This document shows positions 16,698 to 44,238 of a DNA stretch of 64,000 nt, one piece after another (position 1 is the stretch's first letter; the number at the start of each line of letters is the position of its first letter). This DNA is from Candidatus Aminicenantia bacterium. Lineage in GTDB: Bacteria; Acidobacteriota; Aminicenantia; Aminicenantales; Saccharicenantaceae. The notes beneath the pieces were generated by a model that had not been told where the DNA came from, ran no database searches, and was given only the letters and a program-made list of their open reading frames with translations. Where the stretch lies: assembly GCA_041479905.1 (NCBI GenBank), contig JBGOYY010000002.1, positions 16,802-80,801 on the forward strand, in the 5' to 3' direction. The position numbers were made by a program, and so were the translations under genes.

Positions 16698-16745
16698 GCC
16701 CTGACCCTCATCCCGCCCGTCCTCATGAAGTGGGGCCCGAACTGA
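16698..16745 (+). repeat. Direct repeat, right copy (displaced original YfcC 3' end)
   Basis: Encodes ALTLIPPVLMKWGPN* against ALTLIPPVLMKWGPA* in the gene. Confidence 0.9.
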
Positions 16746-17018
16746 TCTTCTATTTACTCCGGACGGTCCCCTCCCGGCGGCCGTCGTCGTACAGCCCGAC
16801 GGCCTTGACGGCTGACCCTTCTTGTCGAACTCGATCTTCAACCGGAAGGACGGGAGTGTTTTCCGGACGAACGTATCCATTCCGCCTAAAGGATTGACAC
16901 CGCTAGGAGGCGACGATATACTCCCGGCGTGACCGGGAGGAGGGATTCAATGTCCTCCTCGGCGTCCCGTGCGCCTTTTATCGACGCCGCGATCGAGCCT
17001 CGCGGCGGTGGAGGAACC

Positions 17019-17543: not shown

Positions 17544-17568
17544 TAGGCGAATTCCCCTTTTCCCCCAG

Positions 17569-17596
17569 GCAACCTTTTGCCCGGCTTTTTCATCTA
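17569..17596 (+). promoter_or_regulatory. Putative ECF autoregulatory promoter
   Basis: GCAACC-16 nt-CATCTA directly upstream of the second ECF gene. Confidence 0.55.
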
Positions 17597-17601
17597 TACG
17601 G

Positions 17602-18297
17602 GTGAGGCAAGAAATGGACTCACCCGGCTTGATCCTGGCGATTCAAGGCCAAATCGGCGATAATAGCCTCCGTGCGGAGTACGAATCCTTCCTGGAGGCG
17701 GCCTTAGTCATGGGGCGGGACACCGGGGAGGGGCCGGTCTGGGGGACTTCGGACAAGGCCCGCCTGGGCGAACTCGTGGCCCGCGGCCGCGACGGCGACC
17801 TGGCCGCCGTGGAATCCCTCTACGAGATGTTCAAGCGGCCGGTTTTCGGCCTCATCTACAGGCACACCCAGAACCAGGCCGTCGCCGAGGACCTTCTCCA
17901 GGACGTTTTCCTCAAGATCTTCAGCCATCTCCGGAACGTCCGCGACGCGGCGACTTTCCCCGGCTGGGTCTTCCGGATCGCCCTCAACACCAGCTACAGC
18001 TACCTCCGCCAGAAAAAGGCCCAGGGCGTCAAGCTCGTCCCCCTGTCCGACCTCGAGGGCCGTCTCGAAGAGCGGGGCGGCGAGCCCGTCGAAAGGGACC
18101 TCCGGAAGCCCTTGGACGAGGCCATCCAGGTGCTGGCGCCGCGTCTGCGGAGTGTTTTTATCCTCCACGACGTCCAGGGGTTCAAGCACGAGGAGATCGC
18201 GCGGGCGCTCGGCTGCGCGGTCGGGACGTCGAAGTCCCAGCTCTTCAAGGCCAGGATCAAGGTCCGCGAATACCTGCGGGCCAAAAGGGCCGTTTGA
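17602..18297 (+). CDS. ECF RNA polymerase sigma factor (start uncertain)
   Basis: AEDLLQDVF, WVFRIALN, GFKHEEIA...GTSKSQLFKAR. Confidence 0.92.
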   Translation: MRQEMDSPGLILAIQGQIGDNSLRAEYESFLEAALVMGRDTGEGPVWGTSDKARLGELVARGRDGDLAAVESLYEMFKRPVFGLIYRHTQNQAVAEDLLQDVFLKIFSHLRNVRDAATFPGWVFRIALNTSYSYLRQKKAQGVKLVPLSDLEGRLEERGGEPVERDLRKPLDEAIQVLAPRLRSVFILHDVQGFKHEEIARALGCAVGTSKSQLFKARIKVREYLRAKRAV

Positions 18298-21179: not shown

Positions 21180-22880
21180 ATGATCGCCACAAAAGGGGCC
21201 GGGTTCGACGTCATCCTCGTCAGCGGAGAGCCCTATGCCGACCACCCGCTCTCGCCCGTCGGGATGATCGCCCGGGTGCTCGACGCCGAAGGATACACGG
21301 TCGGCGTCATCGAGTGCCCGGACTGGAAGGGGAAAGAGGATTTCCTCAAGCTCGGCCGGCCCCGGCTCTTCTTCGGCATCACCTCGGGCTCGATCGACAG
21401 CATGCTCGTCAACTACACGCCGCTCAAGCGGGAGAGGGCCGTCGACCCGAATGCGCCCTTCCAGTCGCGGATGCCGGATCGGGCCGTCATCGTCTACGCC
21501 AACCGGATCCGGGAGCTCCACAAGGGGGCGCGGATCGTCCTCGGCGGCATCGAGGCTTCTCTCCGGCGCTTCGCCCACTATGATTACTGGGGGGACGACG
21601 TCCGCCGCTCGATCCTCCTCGACACGCGGGCCGATATCCTCGTCTACGGGCCGGGCGAGCTCCAGGTCATCGAGATCGCCAAGCGCCTCGACCGGGGCGA
21701 AGGCCTCGACGGCATCCGGGGGACGTGCGTCATGCGGGCCGAGGCGCCCGAAGGGGCGCTCGTCATTCCCTCGTTCGAGGAGGTCAAGGCGGACAAAGAC
21801 AAGTTTTGCGAAGCGCAGAAGCGCCTCGCGAACCGGCGGGCGATCGCCCAGAAGCACGCCAACCGCTTCGTCGTCCAGTACCCGGCTCCGGATTACACGC
21901 CGGCCGACCTCGACCGGGTCTACGGCCTGCCCTTCACGCGCCGCATCCCGGAGGGCTTCCCCGAGCTCGGCATGGCCCGCTTTTCGCTCCAGACCCACCG
22001 GGGATGCGTCGGGCGGTGCTCCTTCTGCGCCCTGTCCCTCCATCAGGGCGACCGGATCGTTTCCCGCAGCGAAGACTCCATCCTCGAGGAGATCCGGCGG
22101 ATGACGAAGCACCCGGAGTGGCGCGGCTTCGTCGACGACCTGGGCGGGCCGACGGCCAACATGTACGGCATGGACCGGGCGGCGGCCGAGGTGCGCTGCG
22201 AGGGCGATGCGGAAGCGGATAGCGACCAAAAGGATAGAAAGCCGGAACGAGTCAAACGCGGGGTCGTCGAAGCGGCCCACCGCAGGCTCGTCGGACTGAT
22301 GCGCGCCGCCCGCAAGGTCCCTGGCGTCAAGAAGGTCTTTGTCCGGAGCGGCATCCGCTACGACCTGGCCCTCGAGAGCCCGGAGTACGTCCGGGAGCTC
22401 GCCCGCCACCACGTTTCGGGCCTTCTCAAAATTGCGCCCGAGCATGTCTCGGAAAACGTCCTGCGGCTGATGAACAAGAGCGGCGGCCGGCGGAGCCTCG
22501 AGGAGTTCCGGCGGATGTTCGCCGAGATGACCGTGGAGAAGGGCCCGGCGGGTTCGGGGAAGCGGGGGGGCGCGCCGCGACGCGGACGCTTGGCCGGCCG
22601 GCCCCAGCACCTCAAGTATTACTTCATGGTCGCCCATCCGGGGACGACCGATAAGGAAGCCCGCGAGCTCGCCGCCTTCCTCCGGGAGATCGAGGAAAGC
22701 GGGGAGAAGCCGGTCGAGGGCGTTCAGATCTTCACGCCGACGCCCATGACCCGCTCGACCTGCATGTACCACACGGGCAAGGATCCGCAGACGGGCGAGA
22801 GCGTCTACGTCCCGCGCCCCTACGCCGAGAAGAAGGCCCAGAAACGGATGTTGAATCCCCCTGCCGCTGACGACGATTAA
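21180..22880 (+). CDS. YgiQ (UPF0313) family radical SAM protein
   Basis: DVILVSGEPYADHP, SLRRFAHYDYW, RGCVGRCSFC, DLGGPTANMYG, SGIRYD, KIAPEH, FTPTPMT. Confidence 0.92.
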   Translation: MIATKGAGFDVILVSGEPYADHPLSPVGMIARVLDAEGYTVGVIECPDWKGKEDFLKLGRPRLFFGITSGSIDSMLVNYTPLKRERAVDPNAPFQSRMPDRAVIVYANRIRELHKGARIVLGGIEASLRRFAHYDYWGDDVRRSILLDTRADILVYGPGELQVIEIAKRLDRGEGLDGIRGTCVMRAEAPEGALVIPSFEEVKADKDKFCEAQKRLANRRAIAQKHANRFVVQYPAPDYTPADLDRVYGLPFTRRIPEGFPELGMARFSLQTHRGCVGRCSFCALSLHQGDRIVSRSEDSILEEIRRMTKHPEWRGFVDDLGGPTANMYGMDRAAAEVRCEGDAEADSDQKDRKPERVKRGVVEAAHRRLVGLMRAARKVPGVKKVFVRSGIRYDLALESPEYVRELARHHVSGLLKIAPEHVSENVLRLMNKSGGRRSLEEFRRMFAEMTVEKGPAGSGKRGGAPRRGRLAGRPQHLKYYFMVAHPGTTDKEARELAAFLREIEESGEKPVEGVQIFTPTPMTRSTCMYHTGKDPQTGESVYVPRPYAEKKAQKRMLNPPAADDD

Positions 22881-25519
22881 TCGGCGAGCTTGAACAGGGC
22901 CCGGAACCCCGGGTCTTTTCTGATGGGCAAGTAATCCGGCAGGATGACCGGAAAGAAGGGGTCTGAATAACCCTTATCCAAGGCCTTCTTCAGCAAGCCG
23001 ACGGCCTGCTCGGCCTGCCCAAGCTGGGCGTAGAGTCCAGCAAGATCGAGGAGGGCATGGGCGTCGTCGGCCGCGGCGGCCAGCGCCTTATTCAGATAGG
23101 CACGAGCTCCGCCGGCCTTTCCCGAAACCGCGTTCAGCATCCCGAGCAGGGGGTAGTAGTTCTTGGCGTTCAGCTTGCCCTTCCCGAGTTCCTTCAGCAA
23201 TGACGCTTCGGCCTCCGTTGCGACCTTCTTGGCCTCTTCCCGGTTCCCGGCCTCCTTGAGCGCCACGGCGAGGTCAAAGGCGTTAACCGCCGGATCGCCG
23301 GCCATCCCGCCTTGGGGTCCAAGTTCGGCGACCCGCCGATAGCAGGGCACCGCTTCGGCCGCCTTCCCCGCCGCGAGAAGCATGTGGGCGAGGTTGGGCA
23401 GGGCATAGGGGTGTCCGGGCTCGAGCTCGACGGCCTTCCGCAATTCTTTCTCTGCTTCCGGAAATTTCTCCTGGACCGCGAGAGTGTATCCCAGGATCGA
23501 ATGAGTGTTGGCCAATTCGGGGGCCATGGCCACATAGCGCCTGGCCGTCGTTTCCGCCGCCCGGATGTCTTTTTGAAAAAGGTTCTGGCAGTACCAGAGA
23601 TTGAGGAGGGGGATGGAATTGTGCGGGGCCAGCCCGGCGGCCTTTTCGAACATCGCCGCGGCCTCGTCGTAGCGGCCGAGGGACTGCAGGATCCTCCCGG
23701 CGTTGTTCCAGGCCGGCATGAAATCGGGATAGAGCTCCCGGAGCATGCGGTATTCCTCGAGCGCCCCGGCCGGGTCCTTGTCCACGAATTGTTTGTTCAC
23801 GGCCTTGAGCTTGAGCAGGTCGCGCGGCGGATAGTCCTGGGCTTCGGCGTTCTTCAAGGCCTGACGGAGCATCTCCTGGCCCTTCTCTTCCTGCCGCAGG
23901 AACTGGATCAAGAGGAGCCCCAGCGAGCCGCGGGCTTCGACGAATTCGGGGTCCTTTTCGAGGGCCAGCTCGAAGAACTTGGCCGCCTCCGGGAACTTGC
24001 TTTCCTGCCACCTGGCCAGGCCCAGGGAAAACTCTTTCAGGGCCTCCCAGGACGATGTCGTCACTTCGCTGACGGGCCTGTTGGCTTTTTCGATGCTGCG
24101 GATCGACTCGCCCAGCCGGGAGCGGAGCTTTTCGGACAGCGCGTCGATAGCCCGGAGAAGGACTTCCTCCCGGCCCTTGGCGGTGACGCGGATCCGGTCG
24201 ACGTGCCGGCGCTTGACCGGGTCGATGACGATGGCCTGGAGCTCGTAGGCGTCGCCGGCGGAAAGGATGCGCGGCAGGACGAAGGCTCGGACCCCGCCGA
24301 AGTGGCAGAGTTCGTAGCCGAGGGCCTCGTCGACCTTCGACGCGGGGTCCTTCCTCATCAGCCGCAGGGTTTCGCTGATCTGGGGCTTGTCGAAGATGGC
24401 CACGTAAGGCGACTGTTGCAGGGCGGCTTCGATGGCTGTCCGCAAGGCTAAGTCAAAGACTTGGTCGCCGGTGAGATTCTCGACGTCGGCCACCATGAGC
24501 TTATCGCGGTTCTCGAAGGCCAGCCCGGGCCGGCTGAGAAGCCAGACGGCGACCGCGACGGCGGCCAGGGAAAGCGCCCCGGCGGCGATCCAGACGGGTC
24601 TCGGCCGGCGGCGGAACGACAGCCTTTTCGCCGTCGGAAAAGCGCGGGCGCTCATCGCCTCTCTCAGACCGCGGAGCTCGCCGGCCATCTCCCGGGCTGA
24701 GGCGTATCTCTTGTCCGGGTCCTTGGCCAGGGCCTTGCGGATGACATGGGAGAGCTCGGCCGGGAAGCCCGGCCGCAAGTCCTTCGTCGGGCGGGGCTCG
24801 TCGTGAACGATGGCGTTGAGGACGGCCCGGTCGGTGTCGCGGCCGAAGGGGAGAGCGCCCGTTGCCATCTCGTAGAGGACGACGCCGAGCGACCAGACGT
24901 CCGTTCGGGCGTCGACCTCGTCGCCGCGAGCCTGTTCGGGGGACATGTAGGCCACCGTGCCCACGGTCGTCCCCGTGACGGTCATCCTGGCCTCGCCGGT
25001 GAGCTTGGCCAGGCCGAAATCGAGGATCTTAGCCAGCCCGTCGGAGGTGACCATGATGTTCCCCGGCTTGATGTCGCGGTGGACGATGCCGTACTCGTGG
25101 GCCTTGGCCAAACCCTCGCCGACTTCGGACGCGATCCTGATCGCCTCGACCGGCTCCAGGGCGCCGCGGCCGAGTTTGTCCTTCAGGCTTTCGCCCTGAT
25201 AGCAAGCCATGACGATATAGAGGCCGCCGTCCTCGGATTCGTCGACTTCGTGGATAGTGCAGATGTTTGGATGGTCAAGGCTCGACGCGGCCCGGGCTTC
25301 GTGGATGAAACGTTCGCGGGCTTCGGCGTCCGCGGTCAGTCCGGGCGGCAGGAACTTGAGGGCGACCGTCCGCTTGAGGCGGAGGTCCTCGGCCTCGTAG
25401 ACGACGCCCATGCCGCCCCGGCCGAGCTTGCGGACGATGCGGTACTTGCCGGCCACGGTCTGCCCGGGCTGGACCTCGGCGGCGGCAATTTTCAGTGTCC
25501 TGGTCGGGACATCCCCCAA
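22877..25519 (-). CDS. Membrane Ser/Thr protein kinase with extracytoplasmic TPR domain
   Basis: GRGGMG, HRDIKPGN, DFGLAK, YMSPEQ; TM; TPR-like repeats; TTG start after GGAGG. Confidence 0.92.
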   Translation of the reverse strand: MGDVPTRTLKIAAAEVQPGQTVAGKYRIVRKLGRGGMGVVYEAEDLRLKRTVALKFLPPGLTADAEARERFIHEARAASSLDHPNICTIHEVDESEDGGLYIVMACYQGESLKDKLGRGALEPVEAIRIASEVGEGLAKAHEYGIVHRDIKPGNIMVTSDGLAKILDFGLAKLTGEARMTVTGTTVGTVAYMSPEQARGDEVDARTDVWSLGVVLYEMATGALPFGRDTDRAVLNAIVHDEPRPTKDLRPGFPAELSHVIRKALAKDPDKRYASAREMAGELRGLREAMSARAFPTAKRLSFRRRPRPVWIAAGALSLAAVAVAVWLLSRPGLAFENRDKLMVADVENLTGDQVFDLALRTAIEAALQQSPYVAIFDKPQISETLRLMRKDPASKVDEALGYELCHFGGVRAFVLPRILSAGDAYELQAIVIDPVKRRHVDRIRVTAKGREEVLLRAIDALSEKLRSRLGESIRSIEKANRPVSEVTTSSWEALKEFSLGLARWQESKFPEAAKFFELALEKDPEFVEARGSLGLLLIQFLRQEEKGQEMLRQALKNAEAQDYPPRDLLKLKAVNKQFVDKDPAGALEEYRMLRELYPDFMPAWNNAGRILQSLGRYDEAAAMFEKAAGLAPHNSIPLLNLWYCQNLFQKDIRAAETTARRYVAMAPELANTHSILGYTLAVQEKFPEAEKELRKAVELEPGHPYALPNLAHMLLAAGKAAEAVPCYRRVAELGPQGGMAGDPAVNAFDLAVALKEAGNREEAKKVATEAEASLLKELGKGKLNAKNYYPLLGMLNAVSGKAGGARAYLNKALAAAADDAHALLDLAGLYAQLGQAEQAVGLLKKALDKGYSDPFFPVILPDYLPIRKDPGFRALFKLAD

Positions 25520-25593
25520 TTTCCCCTCCGATCAGCTGATGGGAAGGATAACAACTCCGGGGTCCGTAGTCAAATCCGGGCCTCGTCCGCAGC

Positions 25594-25638
25594 TTGACAG
25601 GCGCCGGCCGATAATATATGAATATATCTTCATATGAT
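25594..25638 (+). promoter_or_regulatory. Promoter with ArsR/SmtB-type operator
   Basis: TTGACA at 25594-25599; inverted repeat ATATGAA-N6-TTCATAT at 25616-25635 over the -10/start region. Confidence 0.7.
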
Positions 25639-25641
25639 GCC

Positions 25642-26985
25642 ATGAGTGAGAAAAAGTTCGCCTTGAGCATGCCGGAAGGAGCCGGACTCCTGGCTTATCT
25701 CGAGAAGGGCGAGATAGGCCCGGCCGGCGGCCGCACGCGTCCGGCCAAGGTCGTCCATGAGCTCCGCTTTGAGGAGGGACGGCTCGTCGTCCCCGGGGAA
25801 CTCGAGAAAAAGCTCGGCCTGGCCCCCGGCGCCCGCCTCGAGATCGTCACCGACCGTGGCCGCGTCGAGATCCTGCCCAACATCCACAGCTTGAATCGCC
25901 TCACCATCGAGCCCACCTCTCGCTGTAACCTGTCCTGCCGGACCTGCATCCGCAATACCTGGGAAGAACCCATGGGCGACATGGACATGAAGGTTTTCGA
26001 CCGGCTGGCCGGCCAGCTCGCCCGCTTCCCCCACCTCGAAACGGTCATGTTCGGCGGCTTCGGCGAACCGACAGCCCACCCGCGCATCCTCGACATGATC
26101 CGCGCCGTCAAGGCCCTGGGGCTCCGCGCCGAGATGACGACCAATGCGACCCTCCTCGACGATGCCTTGATCGACGGCCTGCTCCGCGAGCGTCTCGACA
26201 CCCTCTGGATCTCGCTCGACGGGACGACCGAAGAGAGCTTCGAAACGATCCGCGAGGGCGCGAGCTTCCCCCTCGTCCTCGAGAACGTCGAACGGCTCGG
26301 CCGGCGAAACGGCCGGGACGGCCACCGGATCGACATCGGCATCGCTTTCGTCGTCATGAAAACGAACCTCCACGACGTCAAGCACCTCGACCGCCTGGCC
26401 CGGTCCGTCGGGGCCCGCCGCATCCTTATCAGCCACGTCCTGCCGTACAGCGAGGCGATGGAAAAAGAGATGCTCTGCCTCCAGACGCTGACCCTCGAGA
26501 CGTTCACCTTCGCTCCCGGCAAGACGGAGCTCAGCCTGCCCCGGATCGACGTCAACAACACGACCAAGGAGACGCTTTTCAGCCTGCTCCAGGGGTTCGA
26601 GAACCTGACCTTCATGGGCAACAGGATCGCCGTCGACGCCCGCCGCTGCCGCTTCGTCCACGAACGTTCGTCGTTTGTCCGCTGGGACGGGAAGGTCGGT
26701 CCTTGCATGGGGCTCCTCCATTCCCACCGGACCTACCTTTACGGGCTCGAGCGGCGGGTCCGGTCTCACGCCTTCGGCGACGCGCGCGAGGGAGACCTCT
26801 TCGAGATCTGGAATTCGAAGGCCTACGCGGACTTCCGGGAGAAGGTCAAAGCCTTCGATTTCTCGCCCTGCCACGTCTGCGGCGGCTGTTCCATGCTCGA
26901 GTCGAACGAGGAGGACTGCTACGGGAACACTTTCCCGGCATGCGGCGGCTGCCTCTGGGCCCAGGGGGTCATCCAATGCCCGTGA
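25642..26985 (+). CDS. Radical SAM/SPASM protein with N-terminal AbrB-like domain
   Basis: GRLVVPGELEKKLGLAPG (AbrB-like), CNLSCRTC, GGFGEP, SPASM Cys cluster CHVCGGC...DC...CGGCLW. Confidence 0.88.
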   Translation: MSEKKFALSMPEGAGLLAYLEKGEIGPAGGRTRPAKVVHELRFEEGRLVVPGELEKKLGLAPGARLEIVTDRGRVEILPNIHSLNRLTIEPTSRCNLSCRTCIRNTWEEPMGDMDMKVFDRLAGQLARFPHLETVMFGGFGEPTAHPRILDMIRAVKALGLRAEMTTNATLLDDALIDGLLRERLDTLWISLDGTTEESFETIREGASFPLVLENVERLGRRNGRDGHRIDIGIAFVVMKTNLHDVKHLDRLARSVGARRILISHVLPYSEAMEKEMLCLQTLTLETFTFAPGKTELSLPRIDVNNTTKETLFSLLQGFENLTFMGNRIAVDARRCRFVHERSSFVRWDGKVGPCMGLLHSHRTYLYGLERRVRSHAFGDAREGDLFEIWNSKAYADFREKVKAFDFSPCHVCGGCSMLESNEEDCYGNTFPACGGCLWAQGVIQCP

Positions 26986-27359
26986 AAGACGTCGTCCGGA
27001 TCTTCAAGGCCCTGGCCGACCCCGCCCGGTTGCGGATCATGATCCTTCTCGGGCGTCGGGAGCTCTGCGTCTGCGAGATCATGTTCGTCCTGGGCATGGA
27101 GCAATCACGGGTGTCCCACCACATGCGCGTCCTGCGGGACGCCGGCATCGCTGAGGACGTCCGCGAGGGACGGTGGATCATCTACCGGATCCCGGAGGCC
27201 TCGCGCGGCCTCGTCGAGGGCCTCTTCGCCGGCGCGCTCCGGGAACGGATCGAGGGCTCCGGCGAGACGGCCGCCGACGCCCATAAGCTCGAGGCCTGCG
27301 TCCGGGAAAACATCCGCGGCCGTGTCTGCGAAGCGCGCCCCCGATTGGAGGGACAGTGA
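26982..27359 (+). CDS. arsR: ArsR family metalloregulator
   Basis: FKALADPARLRI, ELCVCEI, SRVSHHMRVL, REGRWIIY; GTG overlaps the upstream TGA. Confidence 0.9.
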   Translation: MKDVVRIFKALADPARLRIMILLGRRELCVCEIMFVLGMEQSRVSHHMRVLRDAGIAEDVREGRWIIYRIPEASRGLVEGLFAGALRERIEGSGETAADAHKLEACVRENIRGRVCEARPRLEGQ

Positions 27360-28204
27360 AGAAAACGATCCTCTTTATCTGCGTTCACAATTCTGCCCGA
27401 TCCCAGATCGCCGAGGGCCTGGTCAACGCCCTTTATGGAGACAGGTTTCTGGCCTCGAGCGGCGGGACGATGGCCACGAAGGTCCATCCCGGGGCGATCA
27501 AAGCCATGGCCGAGATCGGCATCGACATCAGCGGGCACCGATCGAAGAGCATCGACGTGTTCGAAGGCCAGCGCTTCGATCATGTCGTGATGGTCTGCGA
27601 CGATAAGCAGTCGGATTGCCCGTTCTTCCCCGGCGGCAAGGACTATATTCACCACGCCTTCGACGACCCGGCGGCCTGCAAAGGAACGGACGAGGAAGTC
27701 CTCGCCTGTTTCCGCCGCAGCCGCGACGAGATCCGCGCTTGGATCGAGGAGACGCTCATCGATCAAATCTTGGAACTCGCCGTCGATAAATTCCTGTTCC
27801 GATTTCCGGCCGACCTCTACTACAGCGAGGCCGGGATCTGGGTGAGATTCGAGGGATCACGGGCGCGCATCGGGCTTTCCGATTTTACCCAGCAGAGGAA
27901 CGGCGACGTGGCCTTTGCCGAGCCGAAAGAGGTGGGGACTCAGGTCCGGTTGGGGGACGAGGTGGCCGTCGTCGAGACGATCAAGGTCAACCTCAGCATC
28001 CCCTCGCCCGTGGGGGGGAAGGTCATCGAAGTCAACAACGATCTCTTGACCGCTCCCGAGCTCGTCAACCAGGACCCGTACGGGAAGGGCTGGCTGGCTA
28101 TCCTCGAGGTCGAGGAGAGCGAAACGGCGCGCCGAGCTTTGAAGACGGCGGCCGGCTATCTGGCACTGGCCAAGGTCCAGGCGGAGGCGGAGGTCGCGCG
28201 ATGA
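27356..28204 (+). CDS. arsC: Fusion of arsenate reductase (LMW-PTP type) and glycine cleavage H-protein-like lipoyl domain
   Basis: CVHNSAR P-loop, VCDDKQSDCP redox pair, FDDP; then ARIGLSDF, VETIKV (lipoyl-Lys position), SPVGGKVIEVN, VNQDPYGKGWL. Confidence 0.88.
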   Translation: MKKTILFICVHNSARSQIAEGLVNALYGDRFLASSGGTMATKVHPGAIKAMAEIGIDISGHRSKSIDVFEGQRFDHVVMVCDDKQSDCPFFPGGKDYIHHAFDDPAACKGTDEEVLACFRRSRDEIRAWIEETLIDQILELAVDKFLFRFPADLYYSEAGIWVRFEGSRARIGLSDFTQQRNGDVAFAEPKEVGTQVRLGDEVAVVETIKVNLSIPSPVGGKVIEVNNDLLTAPELVNQDPYGKGWLAILEVEESETARRALKTAAGYLALAKVQAEAEVAR

Positions 28205-28620
28205 GCGGAACGCGGCGCAAGATCCCCGTCGTCCCCTGCAGCGGGATCGGGAAAAGCCTCGGAGCCGCGGCCCGGGAAGCGGCCTTTGTCCTTGCCGAGG
28301 ACCTCCGTCCCGACAAAACGAAGATCGTCGCCCTTTCCCTCCTCGTCCTGGGGGACGAAGAAGCACGGCGCGAAGTCGTGGGACGCAAGGCCGTCGCCAT
28401 CGACGGCTGTAAGCTCGAGTGCGCCGCTAAAGGGCTAGCTTGTTCGGGCGCCTCAAAGGTCCACAAAGTCGCCGTCTTCGATGTCGTCCGGCGCCATCGC
28501 GGCCTAAAGCCCGAAGGCGTTTGCGACCTCAACGAGGACGGTCTGATACTGGCCCGGGCGACGGCCGATGAGGCCGCGAAGATCGTCGATAACGTCGACG
28601 CGGAGGGCGGCCATGCCTGA
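28201..28620 (+). CDS. DGC domain (putative zinc-binding) protein
   Basis: PCSG...AIDGCKLECA. Confidence 0.85.
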   Translation: MSGTRRKIPVVPCSGIGKSLGAAAREAAFVLAEDLRPDKTKIVALSLLVLGDEEARREVVGRKAVAIDGCKLECAAKGLACSGASKVHKVAVFDVVRRHRGLKPEGVCDLNEDGLILARATADEAAKIVDNVDAEGGHA

Positions 28621-29065
28621 CCTGCCGAGAAAGAAAATCGGTCTGATCGCCTGCTCCGGCGAGGAGCTCGCCGAGGGCACGGTGACCCGCAGGGCCGTCC
28701 GGAAAGTGCTCGAGACTCTCCGGCCCGACGACGCCGTAACGCTGTGCCTGCCGCTGTTCCTTGCGGGAGGCGAGGGAGAACGGGCCTTCGCCCGCCACTA
28801 TCCGACCATCGCCGTCGACGGGTGCGATAAACGGTGCGCCGCCCTGGCGACGGAGAAGTATAGCGCCAAGCCGGCCGCGAGCATCGTCGTGACGGAGATC
28901 GCGAAGGAAAGCGGCTGCGGGGCGATCGGCACGGCGCGGAGGCTGAACGAAAATGGGCAACGGCTCGCTGAGACTGTCGCCGAGAAGATCGTGGAGGAAA
29001 CGGACCGGCTGTTGAAGAGAAAGCCAAAGGATGCAGGACGCGCGGCCGGCAGGGAGAAGCGCTGA
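28613..29065 (+). CDS. DGC domain (putative zinc-binding) protein
   Basis: ACSG...TLCL...AVDGCDKRCA; RBS GGAGGG. Confidence 0.85.
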   Translation: MPDLPRKKIGLIACSGEELAEGTVTRRAVRKVLETLRPDDAVTLCLPLFLAGGEGERAFARHYPTIAVDGCDKRCAALATEKYSAKPAASIVVTEIAKESGCGAIGTARRLNENGQRLAETVAEKIVEETDRLLKRKPKDAGRAAGREKR

Positions 29066-29514
29066 TGGCCAAAACCGAACTCTACGAAACCTCCGTGAGT
29101 TGGACGGGCGGCCACCGGGGCCATTTGAAGTTCGGCAACGGCCCGGAGATGGACTTCTCCGCGCCGCCGGCTTCGCATGGCGAGGCCGGTGTCCTCACCC
29201 CTGAGGACGCGTTCGTCGGTGCCGTCAACACCTGTGTCATGCTGATGTTCATCTGGGCGGCCGAGCGCTTCCGGCTGGACCTTGTCTCTTATGAGTGCCG
29301 GGCCGAGGGCACGAAGCTCATCGAGCTCGACCGGACGGAGATATTCACGACGGTCGTTTTGCGGCCCCGCATCGCCGTGCGGGCCGGGAATGGGCCAAAA
29401 GAAGCCGTCGAAAAGCGGATCCGCCGGGCGCTCGAATCAGCGCAAAAATTCAGCCTCGTCGCCAACTCCGTCAAGAGCAAGGTCATCATCGAACCGGAAA
29501 TCGTGATCACTTGA
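29065..29514 (+). CDS. OsmC/Ohr family protein
   Basis: [18 protein letters not shown]; the second Cys position reads QKFSLVANS. Confidence 0.82.
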
Positions 29515-29525
29515 AGGGAATTGCC

Positions 29526-30572
29526 GTGAAGAGAAACATGCGCCTCAAGTTCTTCGACAGATACCTGACCCTCTGGATCTTCCTGGCTATGGCCGTCGGC
29601 GTCGGCCTGGGCTACCTCGTCCCGGCCGTCGTCGGTTTCATCAACAAATTCCAATCGGGGACGACCAACATCCCTATCGCCATCGGGCTCATCCTGATGA
29701 TGTATCCGCCCCTGGCCAAGGTGAAGTACGAGGAACTCGGCGATGTCTTCAAGAACGTCAAGGTCCTGACGCTATCCCTCGTCCAGAACTGGGTTATCGG
29801 GCCGCTCCTGATGTTCGCCCTGGCCGTCCTTTTCCTGCGCGACAAGCCCGAATACATGTACGGCCTGATCTTGATCGGCCTGGCCCGCTGCATCGCCATG
29901 GTCATCGTCTGGAACGACCTGGCCCAGGGGGACCGGGAGTACGCGGCCGGACTCGTCGCCTTCAACTCGATCTTCCAGGTGCTGTTTTTCTCCGTCTATG
30001 CTTATATCTTCATCACCGTCTTCCCGACTTGGCTCGGCCTCAAGGGGACGGCGGTCAATATCACCATCCGCCAGATCGCCGAGAGCGTCTTCATCTATCT
30101 CGGCATCCCGTTCCTCGCCGGGCTCATCACGCGCTTCAGCCTGCTTAAGCTCAAGGGCCGGACGTGGTACGAAACGAAGTTCATCCCGCGCATCAGCCCT
30201 ATCACCCTCATCGCCCTGCTCTTCACCATCATCGTCATGTTCTCGCTCAAGGGCGAGTTCATCGTCAAGATCCCGCTCGACGTCCTGCGCATCGCCGCCC
30301 CGCTCCTCATTTATTTCGTGGTCATGTTCCTCGTCTCGTTCTTCTTGAGCCGCAAGGCTGGCGCGGACTACCCCAAGGCGGCGACACTCTCGTTCACCGC
30401 GGCCAGCAACAACTTCGAACTCGCGATCGCCGTGGCCGTGGCCGTCTTTGGTATCAATTCGGGCGAGGCCTTCGCGGCGGTCATCGGTCCGCTCGTCGAG
30501 GTCCCGGTCATGATCGGCTTGGTCAACGTGGCGCTCTATTTCAAGCGGAAGTATTTCGCGAAACCGGTCTGA
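29526..30572 (+). CDS. acr3: ACR3 family arsenite efflux transporter
   Basis: [45 protein letters not shown]. Confidence 0.95.
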
Positions 30573-30706
30573 GGGCGGATCCGGAAGCGGAGGCGTTCCC
30601 TGCGGCCAGGGCCTGGTCGTCAGGGAGCCGGGTCTTATCGTCGAGACTTATGGGTCTATTATAAACCTTGAAATCCCCGCTGCAAATATCGAATAATGGC
30701 CTGAGC

Positions 30707-32269
30707 ATGGAAGACATCGCCAAGGGCGTCCGCTCCTTCACCGCCGGCACGGCGGTGAGCCGGGTCATGGGCCTCTTGCGGGAGATGGTCTTCGCCCACC
30801 TGTTCGGCGCCAGCCAAAGCGCCGCCGCCGACGCGTTCAACGTCGCCTTCCGCATCCCGAACATGCTCCGGGACCTCTTCGCCGAAACGGCGCTTTCGGC
30901 CGCCTTCATCCCGGTCCTGACGAGCGAGCGGGCCAAGGGCAAGGAATTCCAAAACCGCCTGGCCTCGAACATCTTCAACGTCCTGATCATCGTGACGGGC
31001 ATCGTCTCCGTCGCCGGCCTCCTGGCCTCGCCCCATCTCGCCAAGTGGATCGCCTTCGGATTCGGCAAGGTGCCGGGCAAGATCGGCCTGACCGCCCAGC
31101 TGACGGCCGTCCTTTTTCCCTTCCTGATCGTCGTCAGCCTCGGCGCCTGGGCCATGAGTTATTTGAACACGGAAAAGTCGTTCTTCGTGCCGTCGGTCGC
31201 CCCGGCCCTTTTCAACGTTTTTTCGATCCTCGTCCCGGTCCTGACCTACGGCTGGTACGTCTCGCACGGCAAGGAGCCGATCTTCGGCATGGCCATCGGC
31301 GTCCTCGTCGGGGGCCTGATGCAGTTCCTGTTTCAGATGCCGCTCGTCTTCAAGAAGGGCTTTCGCTACAGCTTTGTCATCAGCTTCCGCGACCCTGAGT
31401 TTCGCCGGGTCCTGACCCTCTTCGTTCCCGTGGCCATCGGGCTCGCCGGGCCGCGGATCAACGTCCTCGTCAACACGATCCTGGTGACGCCCTTGAAGCA
31501 GGGAAGCGTCAGCTGGCTGAATTACGCCTACCGGATCATGCAGCTCCCCCTGGGATTGTTCGGTGTGGCCGTCGGGACGGTGACTCTCCAGTCGCTATCC
31601 CGCATCGTCCTGGACAACGACGTCGTGGCCGTCCGCTCGAGGCTGACGGATTCGCTGAAGATGGCCCTTTTCCTGACGGTCCCGACGTCCGTCCTGATCG
31701 CGTTCCTCTCCCGCCCGGTGACGCGCGTCATTTACCAGAGAGGGCACTTCCGGCCCGAAGACACGCTGCCCACGGCCGTGGCCCTCGTCCTCTACACGCT
31801 GGGCATCCCCTTCATCGCCGGCCTGCGGAACGTAGCCGCGGTTTACTACGCGTACAAGGACGCGAGGCTGCCTATGTACGCCAGCCTCGTCTCCGTCGCC
31901 CTGACGATCGCCCTCAACGTTTCGCTCATCGGGGTCCTAGGGTTCATGATCTTTCCATTATCGACGAGCCTGGCCGCGGCCCTCAATTTCTGGCTCCTCG
32001 TCGGCTTCCTCCCGAAGAAGATCGGCAAGTTCGAGATGCGACCGCTCGGCCGCTATTTCGCCTCCCTGACCGCCGCGTCCGTCATCGGCGGCGCGGCGGC
32101 CTGGTTCAGTAATCAGATTTTCATCAAGTGGCTGGGGGCCGGGTTCCTTCCCGCCCTCGCCGGCGTCATCGCCTGCGGCCTCCTCGGGCTGGCCGTTTTC
32201 TATGGCGCATCGCGTCTCCTCGGGATGACCGAAACTCGCGACTACCTCCGCCGCTTCCTTCGCCGCTGA
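30707..32269 (+). CDS. murJ: Lipid II flippase MurJ
   Basis: SRVMGLLRE, DAFNVAFRIPN, LFAE, YAYRIMQLPLG, YQRGHF. Confidence 0.93.
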   Translation: MEDIAKGVRSFTAGTAVSRVMGLLREMVFAHLFGASQSAAADAFNVAFRIPNMLRDLFAETALSAAFIPVLTSERAKGKEFQNRLASNIFNVLIIVTGIVSVAGLLASPHLAKWIAFGFGKVPGKIGLTAQLTAVLFPFLIVVSLGAWAMSYLNTEKSFFVPSVAPALFNVFSILVPVLTYGWYVSHGKEPIFGMAIGVLVGGLMQFLFQMPLVFKKGFRYSFVISFRDPEFRRVLTLFVPVAIGLAGPRINVLVNTILVTPLKQGSVSWLNYAYRIMQLPLGLFGVAVGTVTLQSLSRIVLDNDVVAVRSRLTDSLKMALFLTVPTSVLIAFLSRPVTRVIYQRGHFRPEDTLPTAVALVLYTLGIPFIAGLRNVAAVYYAYKDARLPMYASLVSVALTIALNVSLIGVLGFMIFPLSTSLAAALNFWLLVGFLPKKIGKFEMRPLGRYFASLTAASVIGGAAAWFSNQIFIKWLGAGFLPALAGVIACGLLGLAVFYGASRLLGMTETRDYLRRFLRR

Positions 32270-44126: not shown

Positions 44127-44238
44127 TTTGCTTTCTCCCAATAAGATGAAGACTCGATATTGAACTTGGGCTCATTCGCAACGAGAGTCCAATGATCCCG
44201 GTGTTTCATTTAGCTACAGGGAATAATGAATAAATAGT

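What the first reader, a model, noticed from the sequence alone, without database searches (positions are those of the whole stretch)
25594..30572. Arsenic operon with a lipoyl/thiol module: radical SAM, arsR, arsC-gcvH fusion, DGC x2, OsmC, acr3
Seen: seven co-oriented genes, six joined by overlapping stop and start codons, behind one promoter with an inverted repeat. Established: ArsR, ArsC and Acr3 form a standard arsenate reduction and efflux system. As(III) binds dihydrolipoamide tightly, and Ohr/OsmC proteins use lipoylated proteins as reductants. Inference: the genes between arsC and acr3 form a lipoate-dependent redox or As(III) hand-off relay in place of the usual thioredoxin or ArsD. 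No thioredoxin gene lies in the window. I know of no description of this arrangement.
Basis: partly seen in the sequence, partly recalled or inferred. Interest (0 to 1): 0.88.

Follow-up and report, generated by a model that had tools for sequence, protein, structure and literature searches.

The report
Arsenic operon with lipoyl-protein redox cassette
An arsenic-resistance operon of an uncultured sediment bacterium carries a conserved, undescribed four-gene cassette built around a lipoic-acid carrier protein, which probably feeds reducing power to arsenic or peroxide detoxification.

Summary
Seven co-oriented intact genes (25642-30572) sit behind one conserved promoter and operator: rSAM/SPASM, ArsR, ArsC fused to a GcvH-like H-protein, two DGC paralogues, an OsmC-like protein and Acr3.

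In 80 loci anchored on DGC2, from Acidobacteriota and Chloroflexota, the order H-protein > DGC1 > DGC2 > OsmC-like is kept in 75. The other 5 are cut by contig ends. An ArsR-family gene is present in 68 of 80, and an arsenic structural gene in 46 of 80. A true dihydrolipoyl dehydrogenase lies in 14 of 80, directly upstream of the H-protein gene in 12.

The H-protein is a separate clade from housekeeping GcvH and keeps the lipoyl lysine. DGC1 and DGC2 are predicted to form a heterodimer with their invariant cysteines at the interface.

Best reading (0.5): an As(III)-derepressed, lipoate-driven dithiol relay. It resembles the L-protein/H-protein/OsmC peroxide reductase of Trichomonas hydrogenosomes and serves the OsmC-like protein and, in this lineage, ArsC.

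"In place of thioredoxin or ArsD" is not shown. The terminal substrate and the DGC role are unknown. My searches found no description of the cassette.

The parts
25594..25599 (+). -35 hexamer TTGACA of the operon promoter
   Evidence: Invariant in 8 of 8 aligned relatives although the flanks are unalignable. Position read.
25612..25637 (+). Conserved AT-rich block covering the -10 region, with the inverted repeat ATATGAATAT/ATCTTCATAT (25616-25635). Probable ArsR operator.
   Evidence: Inverted repeat. Conserved in 8 of 8 relatives. One site in the whole genome, reversed control 0. Binding by ArsR is inferred.
25642..26985 (+). Radical SAM/SPASM enzyme (447 aa) with a weak N-terminal AbrB/MazE-like domain. 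An accessory gene of ars islands; substrate unknown.
   Evidence: PF04055 and PF13186. Best NCBIfam match TIGR04317 at 299.5 bits, below the cut-off of 380. Start codon. Homologues sit in ars islands in 7 of 8 loci that lack the cassette.
26976..27359 (+). ArsR-family repressor with the C31-V-C33 pair in the DNA-binding region
   Evidence: PF01022 61.2 bits. NF033788 90.3 bits, above the cut-off of 55. CVC read. The nearest ArsR-family gene of 68 related loci has CVC in 44, CNC in 14 and neither in 10.
27356..27760 (+). ArsC domain of the fusion protein: low-molecular-weight phosphatase type with the thioredoxin-type Cys triad C9, C81, C88 and R15
   Evidence: PF01451. Best solved relatives are B. 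subtilis ArsC 1jl3 and pI258 ArsC 1ljl. In 18 aligned sequences R15, C81 and C88 are invariant and C9 is kept in at least 90%.
27800..28204 (+). GcvH-like lipoyl-carrier domain of the fusion protein. Putative lipoyl lysine K210 (codon 27983-27985) in the motif E-T-I-K.
   Evidence: PF01597 106.5 bits. The lysine matches the window residue in at least 95% of 77 sequences. Forms a clade apart from housekeeping GcvH, support 95/95. The housekeeping gcvT-gcvH pair lies on contig C3.
28201..28620 (+). DGC1: DGC-domain protein with C13 (PCSGIGK), C70 (DGC) and C74 conserved in all related sequences
   Evidence: PF08859. C13 in 78 of 79 aligned sequences (1 gap), C70 and C74 in 79 of 79. Paralogue of DGC2, hhalign probability 99.7%. 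Predicted heterodimer with DGC2.
28613..29065 (+). DGC2: DGC-domain protein, short form (150 aa), with invariant C14, C45, C71 and C75. It lacks the roughly 90-aa C-terminal extension carried by most relatives.
   Evidence: PF08859. Cysteines in 81 of 81 sequences. By the length bins, 16 of 79 are 130-159 aa and 63 of 79 are 220 aa or longer.
29065..29514 (+). OsmC-like two-cysteine protein. C57 and C78 are invariant, E47 lies 10 residues before C57, and the canonical C-terminal cysteine is replaced by S130.
   Evidence: PF02566 35.5 bits. C57 and C78 in 79 of 79 sequences. In the alignment to 2onf and 2d7v those chains carry Cys where this protein has S130.
29538..30572 (+). Acr3 arsenite efflux permease
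   Evidence: TIGR00832 468.3 bits against a cut-off of 282.8. Start codon. The only Acr3 found in the genome with this query.

Best explanation
This is an As(III)-derepressed ars operon of an uncultured Aminicenantes-type Acidobacteriota bacterium.

The core is standard. ArsR holds the single promoter shut until As(III) binds its C31/C33 pair. ArsC reduces As(V). Acr3 exports As(III).

Two accessory units are inserted into this core.

(1) A radical SAM/SPASM enzyme. It is on its own a recurrent ars-island gene, and its substrate is unknown.

(2) A fixed four-gene cassette: a dedicated lipoylated H-protein, a DGC1/DGC2 heterodimer with a cysteine cluster at its interface, and an atypical two-cysteine OsmC-like protein.

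Proposed mechanism (inferred): NADH reduces the lipoyl arm of the H-protein through dihydrolipoyl dehydrogenase. That enzyme is encoded in the cassette in some genomes and elsewhere in this one. The dihydrolipoyl arm then passes two electrons, directly or through the DGC pair, to the OsmC-like protein. The OsmC-like protein reduces a hydroperoxide or another oxidised species formed under arsenic stress. In this lineage, where arsC and the H-protein gene have fused, the arm also re-reduces the C81-C88 disulfide of ArsC.

The relay works like the L-protein/H-protein/OsmC system of Trichomonas hydrogenosomes and like the lipoyl-dependent Ohr/OsmC peroxidases.

Shown here: gene content, conservation, linkage and conserved residues. 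Inferred: lipoylation, the direction of electron flow, the substrate and the role of DGC.
For: LINKAGE
- The cassette order is kept in 75 of 80 DGC2-anchored loci. The other 5 are cut by contig ends. It is kept in 45 of 45 loci of at least 18 kb.
- It is also kept in 6 of 7 more divergent loci. The seventh (L149) holds no OsmC-like match.
- An ArsR-family gene is present in 68 of 80 loci, and in 44 of 45 of the long ones.
- At least one of Acr3, ArsC, ArsM, ArsA, ArsD or ArsP is present in 46 of 80 and in 31 of 45 long loci.
- In this genome those genes occupy about 2-3 places in 3.15 Mb. My rough estimate from that is about 2% of 20-kb windows by chance.

LIPOATE
- Dihydrolipoyl dehydrogenase (TIGR01350, 510.7 bits against a cut-off of 408.8) lies in 14 of 80 loci. 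In 12 it is directly upstream of the H-protein gene on the same strand. It is also present in L147 and L148.
- The lysine in the E-T-x-K motif matches the window residue in at least 95% of 77 sequences.
- The 77 cassette H-proteins form one clade (95/95) against 8 housekeeping GcvH from both phyla and 3 other H-like proteins.
- This genome also holds lipoamide dehydrogenase, BPL/LplA/LipB-family genes and a housekeeping gcvT-gcvH pair.

FUSION
- 40 protein clusters (at 90% identity) of the full ArsC-GcvH fusion, at 66-92% identity to the window protein, plus one of 301 aa at 45%.
- Among relatives with arsC directly upstream of the H-protein gene, 4 of 16 are fused and 12 of 16 are separate.
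- ArsC fused to thioredoxin domains also occurs (P0102, P0107). Fusion to the reductant therefore has a precedent.

DGC
- The two are paralogues (hhalign probability 99.7%).
- Predicted heterodimer: score 0.82, best of 3 controls 0.01. That mark was reached by 58 of 80 solved complexes and by 2 of 110 mismatched pairs. Partner pLDDT is at least 84 and the runs agree in at least 88% of contacts.
- The interface contains the conserved Cys loops.
- No solved relative was found, so the pass is not from memory.
- Single-chain DGC1-DGC2 proteins exist.

PRECEDENT
- Ohr and OsmC show lipoyl peroxidase activity (PMC5384416, passages).

IN SITU
- Contigs from four sediment RNA libraries of one study, 88-99% alike, cover nearly the whole operon and bridge several gene junctions. 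DNA carry-over is not excluded, so this is weak.
Against: - No experiment exists on any member of the cassette.
- Dihydrolipoyl groups are the classical target of As(III) (established knowledge, recalled). A lipoyl relay induced by arsenite should be poisoned by its own inducer unless binding As(III) is the point.
- The OsmC-like protein lacks the family hallmark of two cysteines about 60 residues apart (PMC5384416). Its cysteines are 21 residues apart, and S130 replaces the usual second cysteine. A conserved catalytic Arg was not identified.
- In the Chloroflexota-type loci, 34 of 62 show no ars structural gene in the DNA held (14 of the 31 long ones).
- 10 of 68 nearest ArsR-family genes lack the CxC pair.
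- No lpd gene lies in this window.
- ArsC keeps the thioredoxin-type triad and the genome has thioredoxin.
- The DGC pair has no assigned chemistry, and its fold could not be examined because structure prediction was off.
- Most apparent GcvH-DGC1 'fusions' look like frameshift artefacts.
Confidence: 0.5

Rival explanations
1. As(III) capture and hand-off. The dihydrolipoyl arm of the dedicated H-protein and the cysteine cluster of the DGC1/DGC2 dimer bind As(III). They act as a buffer or decoy that spares the housekeeping lipoyl enzymes, or as a chaperone that passes As(III) to Acr3, as ArsD does for ArsA.
For: - As(III) binds vicinal dithiols such as dihydrolipoamide tightly (established knowledge, recalled).
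- DGC1 has three conserved cysteines and DGC2 four. They are predicted to meet at the dimer interface.
- acr3 follows the cassette directly in the window and in several Chloroflexota loci, for example L082, L093, L110, L117, L125 and L129.
- Five overlapping stop/start junctions suggest coupled, stoichiometric synthesis.
- This reading removes the paradox of an arsenite-induced lipoyl protein.
Against: - A dihydrolipoyl dehydrogenase in 14 of 80 loci and an invariant OsmC-like enzyme point to redox turnover rather than passive binding.
- 51 of 80 loci have no Acr3 in the DNA held.
- ArsD co-occurs with the cassette in 9 of 80 loci, so it is not replaced.
- No metal or metalloid binding has been measured.
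Confidence: 0.2
2. New arsenic chemistry. The OsmC-like protein or the DGC pair, driven by the lipoyl arm, reduces pentavalent organoarsenicals or thioarsenates, for which no anaerobic enzyme is known to me. The rSAM/SPASM enzyme acts on an organoarsenical.
For: - The cassette and the rSAM sit with arsM, arsP and other ars genes in many islands.
- The OsmC-like protein departs from the peroxidase cysteine pattern.
- rSAM homologues lie in ars islands in 7 of 8 loci that have no cassette.
Against: - There is no sequence link to any known arsenic-transforming enzyme.
- The rSAM is present in only 34 of 80 cassette loci.
- Its best family match is a cofactor maturase type, below cut-off.
- The idea rests on context alone.
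Confidence: 0.12
3. A general thiol or peroxide stress cassette that is not specific to arsenic. Its ArsR-family regulator senses another thiophilic or oxidative signal in many genomes. Its presence in ars islands reflects shared regulation or co-transfer, and the ArsC fusion is an accident of adjacency.
For: - 34 of 62 Chloroflexota-type loci have the cassette with no ars structural gene found.
- 10 of 68 nearest regulators lack the CxC pair.
- Neighbours include TauE (9 of 80), CMD/AhpD-like proteins (12 of 80) and a PF04060 Fe-S protein (18 of 80).
Against: - 58 of 68 nearest regulators carry CVC or CNC at the position of the As(III) site of R773 ArsR (the site itself is recalled).
- 46 of 80 loci hold ars structural genes, far above my rough chance estimate of about 2%.
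- All 18 Aminicenantes-type loci are ars operons.
- The fusion persists in 40 clusters, some with many members.
Confidence: 0.1
4. Chance neighbours or an annotation artefact: the genes between arsC and acr3 are unrelated to each other and to arsenic.
For: None found.
Against: Fixed order in 75 of 80 loci across two phyla. Overlapping stop and start codons. A conserved promoter. Intact frames.
Confidence: 0.02

Closest known systems
L-protein / H-protein / OsmC peroxide-reducing system of Trichomonas vaginalis hydrogenosomes (Nyvltova et al. 2016, seen only as cited in a passage of PMC7946386)
   Same: A dihydrolipoyl dehydrogenase, a GcvH-type lipoyl carrier working outside glycine cleavage, and an OsmC-family thiol protein. 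Electrons flow NADH > L > H-lipoate > OsmC.
   Different: Here the genes form a bacterial operon cassette under an ArsR-family repressor and inside ars islands. Two DGC proteins are always inserted between the H-protein and the OsmC-like gene. The OsmC-like protein has a C57/C78 pair instead of the pair about 60 residues apart. Lpd is encoded in the cassette in only 14 of 80 loci, and not in this window.
Lipoyl-dependent Ohr/OsmC peroxidases of bacteria and fungi (PMC5384416, passages read; Cussiol et al. 2010, recalled)
   Same: OsmC fold (PF02566). A cysteine on the first long helix with a glutamate 10 residues before it. Lipoylated proteins serve as reductants.
   Different: The resolving cysteine is replaced by Ser130, and another invariant cysteine lies 21 residues after the first. 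A catalytic Arg was not identified. The NCBIfam peroxiredoxin model scores 28.6 bits against a cut-off of 166.
Lpd-DlaT-AhpD-AhpC NADH peroxidase of Mycobacterium tuberculosis (Bryk et al. 2002, recalled; not seen in any call)
   Same: A four-component chain: flavoprotein, lipoyl protein, cysteine adaptor and thiol peroxidase. By position, the DGC pair could play the adaptor role.
   Different: The DGC proteins are unrelated to AhpD. The lipoyl carrier is an H-protein rather than an E2. The terminal enzyme is OsmC-like rather than a peroxiredoxin.
Thioredoxin-coupled ars operons (pI258 / B. subtilis ArsC type), including ArsC-thioredoxin fusions (P0102, P0107)
   Same: ArsR, an LMWP-type ArsC with a three-cysteine relay, and Acr3. 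The reductase can be fused to its electron donor.
   Different: The fused partner is a lipoyl carrier, not a thioredoxin. I found no report of lipoate as the reductant for ArsC.
Third ars operon of Pseudodesulfovibrio mercurii ND132: ArsR5, ArsP, ArsE and a PF08859 protein (bioRxiv 10.1101/2022.10.17.512643, one passage read)
   Same: A DGC-domain protein of unknown function sits inside an ArsR-controlled ars operon.
   Different: That operon has a single DGC gene and no H-protein or OsmC-like gene. The same single-DGC type occurs in L157 and L158.
LbpA lipoate-binding proteins of the sHdr sulfur-oxidation system, and GcvH-L of S. aureus (PMC10332631 and PMC12440151, search listings only)
   Same: Extra GcvH-like paralogues that use the lipoyl arm outside glycine cleavage.
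   Different: Different partner proteins and regulation. Neither is arsenic-linked, as far as the listings show.

Membership tests
Acr3 arsenite efflux permease (TIGR00832) | Full-length match above the curated cut-off | tested here: met
   468.3 bits against a cut-off of 282.8, model positions 1-327 of 327.
ArsR/SmtB metalloregulator, As(III)-responsive type | HTH_5 domain above cut-off | tested here: met
   PF01022 61.2 bits against 22. NF033788 90.3 bits against 55.
ArsR/SmtB metalloregulator, As(III)-responsive type | Cys pair (C-V-C) in the DNA-binding region, as in R773 ArsR (site recalled) | tested here: met
   E-L-C31-V-C33-E in the window protein. The nearest ArsR-family gene has CVC in 44 and CNC in 14 of 68 related loci.
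ArsR/SmtB metalloregulator, As(III)-responsive type | Release from the operator on binding As(III) | not testable with these tools
   Needs EMSA or a reporter assay.
Thioredoxin-coupled LMWP arsenate reductase (TIGR02691, pI258 type) | P-loop C-X5-R-S with a nucleophilic Cys | tested here: met
   C9-V-H-N-S-A-R15-S16. In 18 aligned sequences R15 is invariant and C9 is kept in at least 90%.
Thioredoxin-coupled LMWP arsenate reductase (TIGR02691, pI258 type) | Second and third relay cysteines (Cys82/Cys89 equivalents) | tested here: met
   C81 and C88 are invariant in 18 of 18 sequences.
Thioredoxin-coupled LMWP arsenate reductase (TIGR02691, pI258 type) | Score above the equivalog cut-off | tested here: not met
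   109.6 bits against 174.3. It is therefore filed as an ArsC-type domain, not as an equivalog.
Thioredoxin-coupled LMWP arsenate reductase (TIGR02691, pI258 type) | Thioredoxin is the physiological reductant | not testable with these tools
   Thioredoxin genes exist elsewhere in the genome. The fused H-domain suggests another donor.
Glycine cleavage H-protein (PF01597 / TIGR00527) | GCV_H domain and lipoyl lysine | tested here: met
   PF01597 106.5 bits. K210 in E-T-I-K matches the window residue in at least 95% of 77 sequences.
Glycine cleavage H-protein (PF01597 / TIGR00527) | Equivalog score and a place in the gcvT/gcvP context | tested here: not met
   105.4 bits against 115.85, and 112.7 against 117. 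The housekeeping gcvT-gcvH pair lies on contig C3. The cassette proteins form a separate clade, 95/95.
OsmC/Ohr thiol peroxidases (PF02566) | OsmC domain above cut-off, with the first (peroxidatic) Cys preceded by a conserved Glu | tested here: met
   35.5 bits against 27.5. C57 is present in 79 of 79 sequences and E47 matches in at least 95%. C57 aligns with the Cys of 2onf and 2d7v.
OsmC/Ohr thiol peroxidases (PF02566) | Second catalytic Cys about 60 residues after the first (hallmark stated in PMC5384416) | tested here: not met
   That position is S130. The other invariant cysteine is C78, 21 residues after C57.
OsmC/Ohr thiol peroxidases (PF02566) | Peroxidase activity with a lipoyl reductant | not testable with these tools
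   Needs an enzyme assay.
DGC domain family (PF08859) | Domain above cut-off, with the D-G-C motif and conserved cysteines | tested here: met
   46.1 and 61.9 bits against 27. Cysteine conservation. The family has no known function. A DGC2 profile finds only 491 representatives at E <= 0.001 among 1.84 billion proteins.
Tungsten-cofactor oxidoreductase rSAM maturase (TIGR04317) | Score above the equivalog cut-off | tested here: not met
   299.5 bits against 380. It is a relative, not a member. The context is ars islands.
Radical SAM/SPASM superfamily | C-x3-C-x2-C motif and a SPASM domain | tested here: met
   C-N-L-S-C-R-T-C in the translation. PF04055 62.2 bits and PF13186 48.8 bits.
L/H/OsmC-type lipoate relay (a resemblance in how it works, not a sequence family) | A dihydrolipoyl dehydrogenase encoded with the H-protein and the OsmC-like gene | tested here: inconclusive
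   Present in 14 of 80 related loci. It is directly upstream of the H-protein gene in 12. It is absent from this window. The genome has lpd on contig C16, 472.9 bits.

The most novel reading that the evidence does not exclude
The H-protein/DGC1/DGC2/OsmC-like block is a self-contained, ArsR-controlled arsenic defence that has not been described. In it the classical victim of arsenite, a dihydrolipoyl arm, becomes the weapon. A dedicated lipoyl carrier, working with a new cysteine-cluster heterodimer (the DGC pair), either captures As(III) for export or reduces arsenic species that no known anaerobic enzyme handles. On this reading the DGC family is a new class of metalloid-binding or disulfide-reducing proteins, and lipoate is a third reductant for ArsC beside thioredoxin and glutaredoxin.
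Probability: 0.3. Interest if true: 0.85.

Novelty: new variant of a known kind. Interest (0 to 1): 0.7.

Why it matters
Arsenite toxicity is taught as the poisoning of dihydrolipoyl groups. Here, bacteria of two phyla place an extra lipoyl carrier under an arsenic-type repressor. In one lineage they fuse it to the arsenate reductase.

If the relay works as proposed, several things follow:
- Lipoate joins thioredoxin and glutaredoxin as an electron source for arsenic detoxification.
- The rare DGC family gets its first functional setting. Only 491 representatives were found among 1.84 billion proteins.
- The L/H/OsmC antioxidant system, known from a protist organelle, is extended to free-living anaerobes.

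The separate finding that a radical SAM/SPASM enzyme is a recurrent ars-island gene points to further unknown anaerobic arsenic chemistry.

All parts are small soluble proteins, so the hypotheses can be tested directly in vitro.

Tried and rejected
DGC AS AN ARSC-LIKE P-LOOP REDUCTASE. Rejected. Profile-profile comparison of DGC1 with an 18-sequence ArsC alignment gave a probability of 0.3%.

Profile searches of solved structures gave only chance-level hits, the best E-values being 0.049 and 0.032. The protein atlas returned only DGC clusters, even with PF08859 left out. The fold remains unknown to me.

GCVH-DGC1 FUSIONS AS ROSETTA-STONE EVIDENCE. A search for longer proteins returned 27. By domain mapping, 11 carry the H-domain followed by DGC1, and 2 more carry a DGC domain before the H-domain. 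I aligned 7 of the 11. In at least three (P0130, P0134, P0138) the end of the H-domain reads as scrambled sequence. The four others depart from the stand-alone proteins nearer the 3' end. That is what a frameshift across the overlapping stop/start would give, and most are single-member clusters. I do not count them. An atlas cluster of 56 members with both domains remains an untested lead.

RSAM AS PART OF THE CASSETTE. Rejected. It is in 34 of 80 cassette loci. Homologues lie in ars islands without the cassette in 7 of 8 fetched loci.

DGC2 SHORT FORM AS DAMAGE IN THIS GENOME. Rejected. 16 of 79 relatives are 130-159 aa long.

FIRST COUNT OF THE ARSR CYS PAIR. The 37 of 38 and 35 of 38 were biased by a length filter. 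A too-strict pattern then gave 40 of 68 and 49 of 68. The figures to use are those: CVC 44, CNC 14, neither 10, of 68.

LITERATURE. Nine searches were run.
- Searches found no description of the cassette, of a lipoate-linked ArsC, or of an ars-linked SPASM enzyme.
- One search gave the one passing mention of PF08859 in an ars operon.
- One search gave the Trichomonas precedent.
- Subscription journals and supplementary files were not searchable, so a description may exist there.

EXPRESSION. RNA-library contigs cover the operon. They are contigs from metatranscriptome libraries of one study, at 88-99% likeness, and DNA carry-over is not excluded. I use them only as a weak hint. The higher summed depth over acr3 is not interpreted.

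TOOLS THAT WERE CLOSED. The search of earlier findings and the listing of cluster members. No earlier notes and no taxon names of cluster members were seen.

UNPUBLISHED GENOMES. G024, G152 and G049 were among the 301 genomes tallied. None had a cassette or rSAM match, so they enter only as negatives in those denominators.

Full report
WHAT IS THERE. The window is part of contig C2 of a 3.15-Mb draft genome, 94% complete. The nearest protein relatives carry names such as Candidatus Aminicenantes and Acidobacteria bacterium.

Between a divergent Ser/Thr kinase-TPR gene (22877-25519, minus strand) and murJ (30668-32269) lie seven intact genes on the plus strand:
- a radical SAM/SPASM enzyme (25642-26985);
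- ArsR (26976-27359);
- a 282-aa fusion of a low-molecular-weight-phosphatase-type ArsC with a GcvH-like H-protein (27356-28204);
- two DGC-domain proteins (28201-28620 and 28613-29065);
- an OsmC-like protein (29065-29514);
- Acr3 (29538-30572; TIGR00832 468.3 bits against a cut-off of 282.8).

Five junctions overlap by 10, 4, 4, 8 and 1 nt. acr3 follows after 23 nt. G+C content (0.635-0.654) matches the surroundings.

PROMOTER AND OPERATOR. I aligned the upstream region with seven relatives that have the same gene order. Almost nothing aligns except two elements. One is TTGACA (25594-25599). The other is the block GATATATGAATATATCTTCATAT (25612-25637). The same alignment points to an ATG that corresponds to 25642. 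The block contains a 10-nt inverted repeat and occurs once in the whole genome, with the reversed control at 0. This is a phylogenetic footprint of a promoter with an overlapping operator. That the neighbouring ArsR binds it is inferred. The ATG at 25618 listed by the ORF finder lies inside the operator and is not conserved in frame, so I take 25642 as the start.

IS THE ARRANGEMENT CONSERVED? First I searched 301 Acidobacteriota genomes with the fusion protein. I fetched 20 regions and scanned them with the window's proteins. The six other genomes with the best H-domain matches all carry H-protein, DGC1 and DGC2 in that order beside ars genes. Four of the six have the OsmC-like gene next. Two housekeeping gcvH loci and 12 loci fetched on ArsC alone had none of the cassette.

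Next I used a DGC2 alignment to scan one genome per species of Bacteria and Archaea. At least 554 stretches encode relatives, and the 80 best loci were kept. About 18 are of the Aminicenantes/Acidobacteria type. The rest are mostly Chloroflexota by record title.

Counts in these 80 loci:
- H-protein 77, DGC1 79, DGC2 80, OsmC-like 78.
- Order H > DGC1 > DGC2 > OsmC in 75 of 80. The other five are cut by contig ends. In all 45 loci of at least 18 kb the order is complete.
- An ArsR-family gene in 68 of 80, and in 44 of 45 long loci.
- At least one of Acr3, ArsC, ArsM, ArsA, ArsD or ArsP in 46 of 80 and in 31 of 45 long loci. By group this is 18 of 18 Aminicenantes-type and 28 of 62 Chloroflexota-type loci.

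In this genome the same queries hit about 2-3 places in 3.15 Mb. I estimate roughly 2% of 20-kb windows would hold one by chance. This is my estimate, not a measured control.

Seven further, more divergent loci keep H > DGC1 > DGC2. Six of them also have the OsmC-like gene.

The cassette is rare and patchy. DGC2 was found in 8 of 301 Acidobacteriota genomes sampled. It was found in 7 of 301 genomes of the phylum of G301, which is Chloroflexota by the title of L074. A DGC2 profile finds only 491 representatives at E <= 0.001 among 1.84 billion proteins.

THE LIPOATE LINK. An unbiased clustering of all ORFs in the 80 loci brought up a 467-aa flavoprotein. It scores 510.7 bits on the dihydrolipoyl dehydrogenase equivalog TIGR01350, against a cut-off of 408.8. 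It lies directly upstream of the H-protein gene on the same strand in 12 loci and about 5 kb away in one more. By tblastn it is present in 14 of 80 loci, and also in L147 and L148.

The lysine of the H-domain (K210, E-T-I-K) matches the window residue in at least 95% of 77 sequences. In a maximum-likelihood tree the 77 cassette H-proteins form one clade (support 95/95). It stands against 8 housekeeping GcvH from the same genomes of both phyla and 3 other H-like proteins. This genome has its own gcvT-gcvH pair on contig C3. It also has lipoamide dehydrogenase (472.9 bits) and two BPL/LplA/LipB-family genes. So the ars-linked H-protein is a dedicated paralogue, and the means to lipoylate and reduce it are present. 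Lipoylation itself is inferred.

THE FUSION. The word-indexed protein search listed 40 clusters (at 90% identity) of the full 282-aa fusion, at 66-92% identity to the window protein. Several have many members, from four sources. There is also one 301-aa fusion at 45% identity.

Sixteen relatives have arsC directly upstream of the H-protein gene. The two are fused in 4 and separate in 12, where arsC ends a few tens of bases before the H-protein start. The fusion therefore arose from adjacent genes. The same search shows ArsC fused to thioredoxin domains (P0102, P0107), so fusion of this reductase to its electron donor has a precedent.

The ArsC domain keeps the P-loop C9-X5-R15 and the relay cysteines C81 and C88. 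It is closest to the thioredoxin-coupled ArsC of B. subtilis and pI258. No PF00085 match lies on contig C2, but four other contigs have one. Thioredoxin therefore cannot be excluded as the donor.

THE DGC PAIR. DGC1 and DGC2 are paralogues (hhalign probability 99.7%). DGC1 has conserved C13, C70 and C74. DGC2 has invariant C14, C45, C71 and C75.

A complex prediction supports a heterodimer. The score is 0.82, against 0.01 for the best of 3 controls. That mark was reached by 58 of 80 solved complexes and by 2 of 110 mismatched pairs. Partner pLDDT is at least 84, and the runs agree in at least 88% of contacts. The counts hold only roughly because my own alignments were used. The interface holds residues 12-17, 42-50 and 72-75 of DGC1 and 13-18, 45-52, 73 and 75-76 of DGC2. 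These are the loops that carry the conserved cysteines. No solved relative exists by profile search, so the pass is not a memory of a known complex.

Single-chain DGC1-DGC2 proteins exist, with an intact DGC1 tail and an in-frame DGC2 head. What the cysteine cluster binds (Zn, Fe-S or As(III)), or whether it cycles as a disulfide, is unknown. DGC is not related to ArsC.

Most relatives of DGC2 carry a roughly 90-aa C-terminal extension with a C-x-C motif. The window's form lacks it, as do 16 of 79 relatives.

THE OSMC-LIKE PROTEIN. It passes the Pfam OsmC threshold. C57 and C78 are present in 79 of 79 sequences. C57 aligns with the first cysteine of two uncharacterised OsmC-like structures, 2onf and 2d7v. 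The position of their second cysteine is Ser130 here.

According to passages of PMC5384416, a pair of cysteines about 60 residues apart is the hallmark of the Ohr/OsmC family. An Arg and a Glu are needed for peroxidase activity. A third, 'Ohr-like' group is poorly characterised. Here E47 lies 10 residues before C57. This matches the spacing of Glu51 in X. fastidiosa Ohr (Glu51 is named in an abstract listed; Cys61 is recalled). I found no conserved Arg. The protein is therefore an atypical member. It may be a peroxidase that is resolved by an external dithiol, or it may act on another substrate.

HOW IT MOST LIKELY WORKS. The closest working precedent is the hydrogenosomal system of Trichomonas vaginalis. 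[quoted passage not shown] Bacterial and fungal Ohr/OsmC are also lipoyl peroxidases.

The cassette has the same three actors, with L encoded in it in some genomes, plus the DGC pair. I therefore propose this chain: NADH > Lpd > lipoyl-H > (DGC1/2) > OsmC-like protein. In the Aminicenantes lineage the chain also runs lipoyl-H > ArsC. The whole is released from ArsR repression by As(III).

Regulation by arsenic is inferred from two things. One is the C31-V-C33 pair of the window ArsR. The other is the same or a C-N-C pair in 58 of 68 nearest regulators. The equivalence to the As(III) site of R773 ArsR is recalled.

Confidence is 0.5. The main objection is chemical: reduced lipoate is the best-known ligand of arsenite. 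This keeps the capture or hand-off reading alive (0.2). Other rivals are new arsenic chemistry (0.12), a stress cassette not specific to arsenic (0.1) and chance (0.02).

THE RSAM/SPASM ENZYME. Its best family match is the tungsten-cofactor maturase type TIGR04317, at 299.5 bits and below the cut-off of 380. Homologues occur in 12 of 301 Acidobacteriota genomes. I fetched eight loci from genomes in which no DGC2 match was found. Seven are ars islands with Acr3, ArsC, ArsM, ArsP, a membrane thioredoxin or CcdA. Within cassette loci the rSAM is present in 34 of 80. It is thus an independent, recurrent ars-island gene with an unknown substrate. My search for SPASM, radical SAM and acr3 together found no paper.

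EXPRESSION. Four sediment metatranscriptome runs of one study hold contigs 88-99% alike over nearly all of 25400-30800. One 2086-nt contig spans 26306-28364, covering rSAM, arsR, arsC-gcvH and dgc1. Two contigs span 28474-29128 and 28474-29171, covering dgc1, dgc2 and osmC. Contigs cannot prove a single transcript, and DNA carry-over is possible. This is only a hint that relatives express the cluster in anoxic sediment.

WHAT IS KNOWN AND WHAT IS NEW. The individual families are known. DGC is an exception: it has no function, and it appears once in print in an ars operon, as an unknown (bioRxiv 10.1101/2022.10.17.512643, one passage). Lipoyl-dependent OsmC/Ohr systems are known. Membrane thioredoxin and CcdA in ars operons are, from recall, known from Bacteroides.

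I could not find the following in nine full-text searches:
- the fixed H-protein/DGC/DGC/OsmC-like cassette;
- its ArsR control and ars linkage;
- an ArsC-H-protein fusion;
- an ars-linked SPASM enzyme.

Subscription journals and supplements were not searchable. I rate the finding as a new variant of a known kind, with interest 0.7.

LIMITS. All loci are from metagenome-assembled genomes. The 80 loci are the closest relatives of one query and are not independent. The unpublished genomes G024, G152 and G049 enter only as negatives in the denominators.

Noticed in passing
window 42444-49690: A low-G+C island (0.44-0.47 against about 0.65). It holds a GmrSD-type restriction endonuclease (42444-44141, minus strand), a 737-aa protein with weak DNA-methylase matches (45257-47470, minus strand), an IS1-like transposase (47665-48561, minus strand) and ORFs with no family. 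It looks like a horizontally acquired defence islet.
   Followed up: partly
G000:C2:14402-15683 (just outside the window, about 27 kb upstream of the operon): A second ArsR-family gene next to an ArsM-like methyltransferase, 41-51% identical to the arsM queries. The genome's arsenic genes are therefore split over two sites on one contig.
   Followed up: no
L151, L153, L154, L155, L157, L158: ars islands of other Acidobacteriota are mosaics of the same modules: ArsR, Acr3, ArsC, ArsM, ArsP, a membrane thioredoxin with CcdA, and the rSAM/SPASM enzyme. They lack the H-protein cassette.
   Followed up: partly
L157 about 7989, L158 about 13506, L037:11067-11432: A single third type of DGC gene sits between arsP and the thioredoxin/CcdA genes in ars islands without an H-protein. 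This is like the lone PF08859 gene of the P. mercurii ND132 ars operon.
   Followed up: no
L037:7143-7803, L038:6961-7615, L149 about 11367-11653, L101, L113, L132: An MvhD-like protein and a small ferredoxin lie next to the cassette in several loci. They may be an alternative electron input to Lpd.
   Followed up: no
18 of 80 cassette loci, for example L123:11693-12232: A roughly 180-aa protein with a PF04060 'putative Fe-S cluster' domain recurs beside the cassette. TauE (9 of 80 loci) and CMD/AhpD-like proteins (12 of 80 loci) recur as well.
   Followed up: partly
L053 (96-98% identical to the window proteins): The arsC part appears in two frames, and the region upstream of the rSAM gene holds a run of N. 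This is probably an assembly flaw in that record rather than biology.
   Followed up: no
window 22877-25519 (minus strand): An 880-aa Ser/Thr protein kinase with a long TPR region is transcribed divergently from the operon. Its start lies about 75 bases from the operon's -35 element.
   Followed up: no
P0056-P0074: A set of 303-aa proteins, one named as from Bathyarchaeia, carries an ArsC-type domain plus about 160 residues with no Pfam family. This is another uncharacterised ArsC fusion.
   Followed up: no
window 16001-18000: A dip in G+C to 0.56. Not examined.
   Followed up: no
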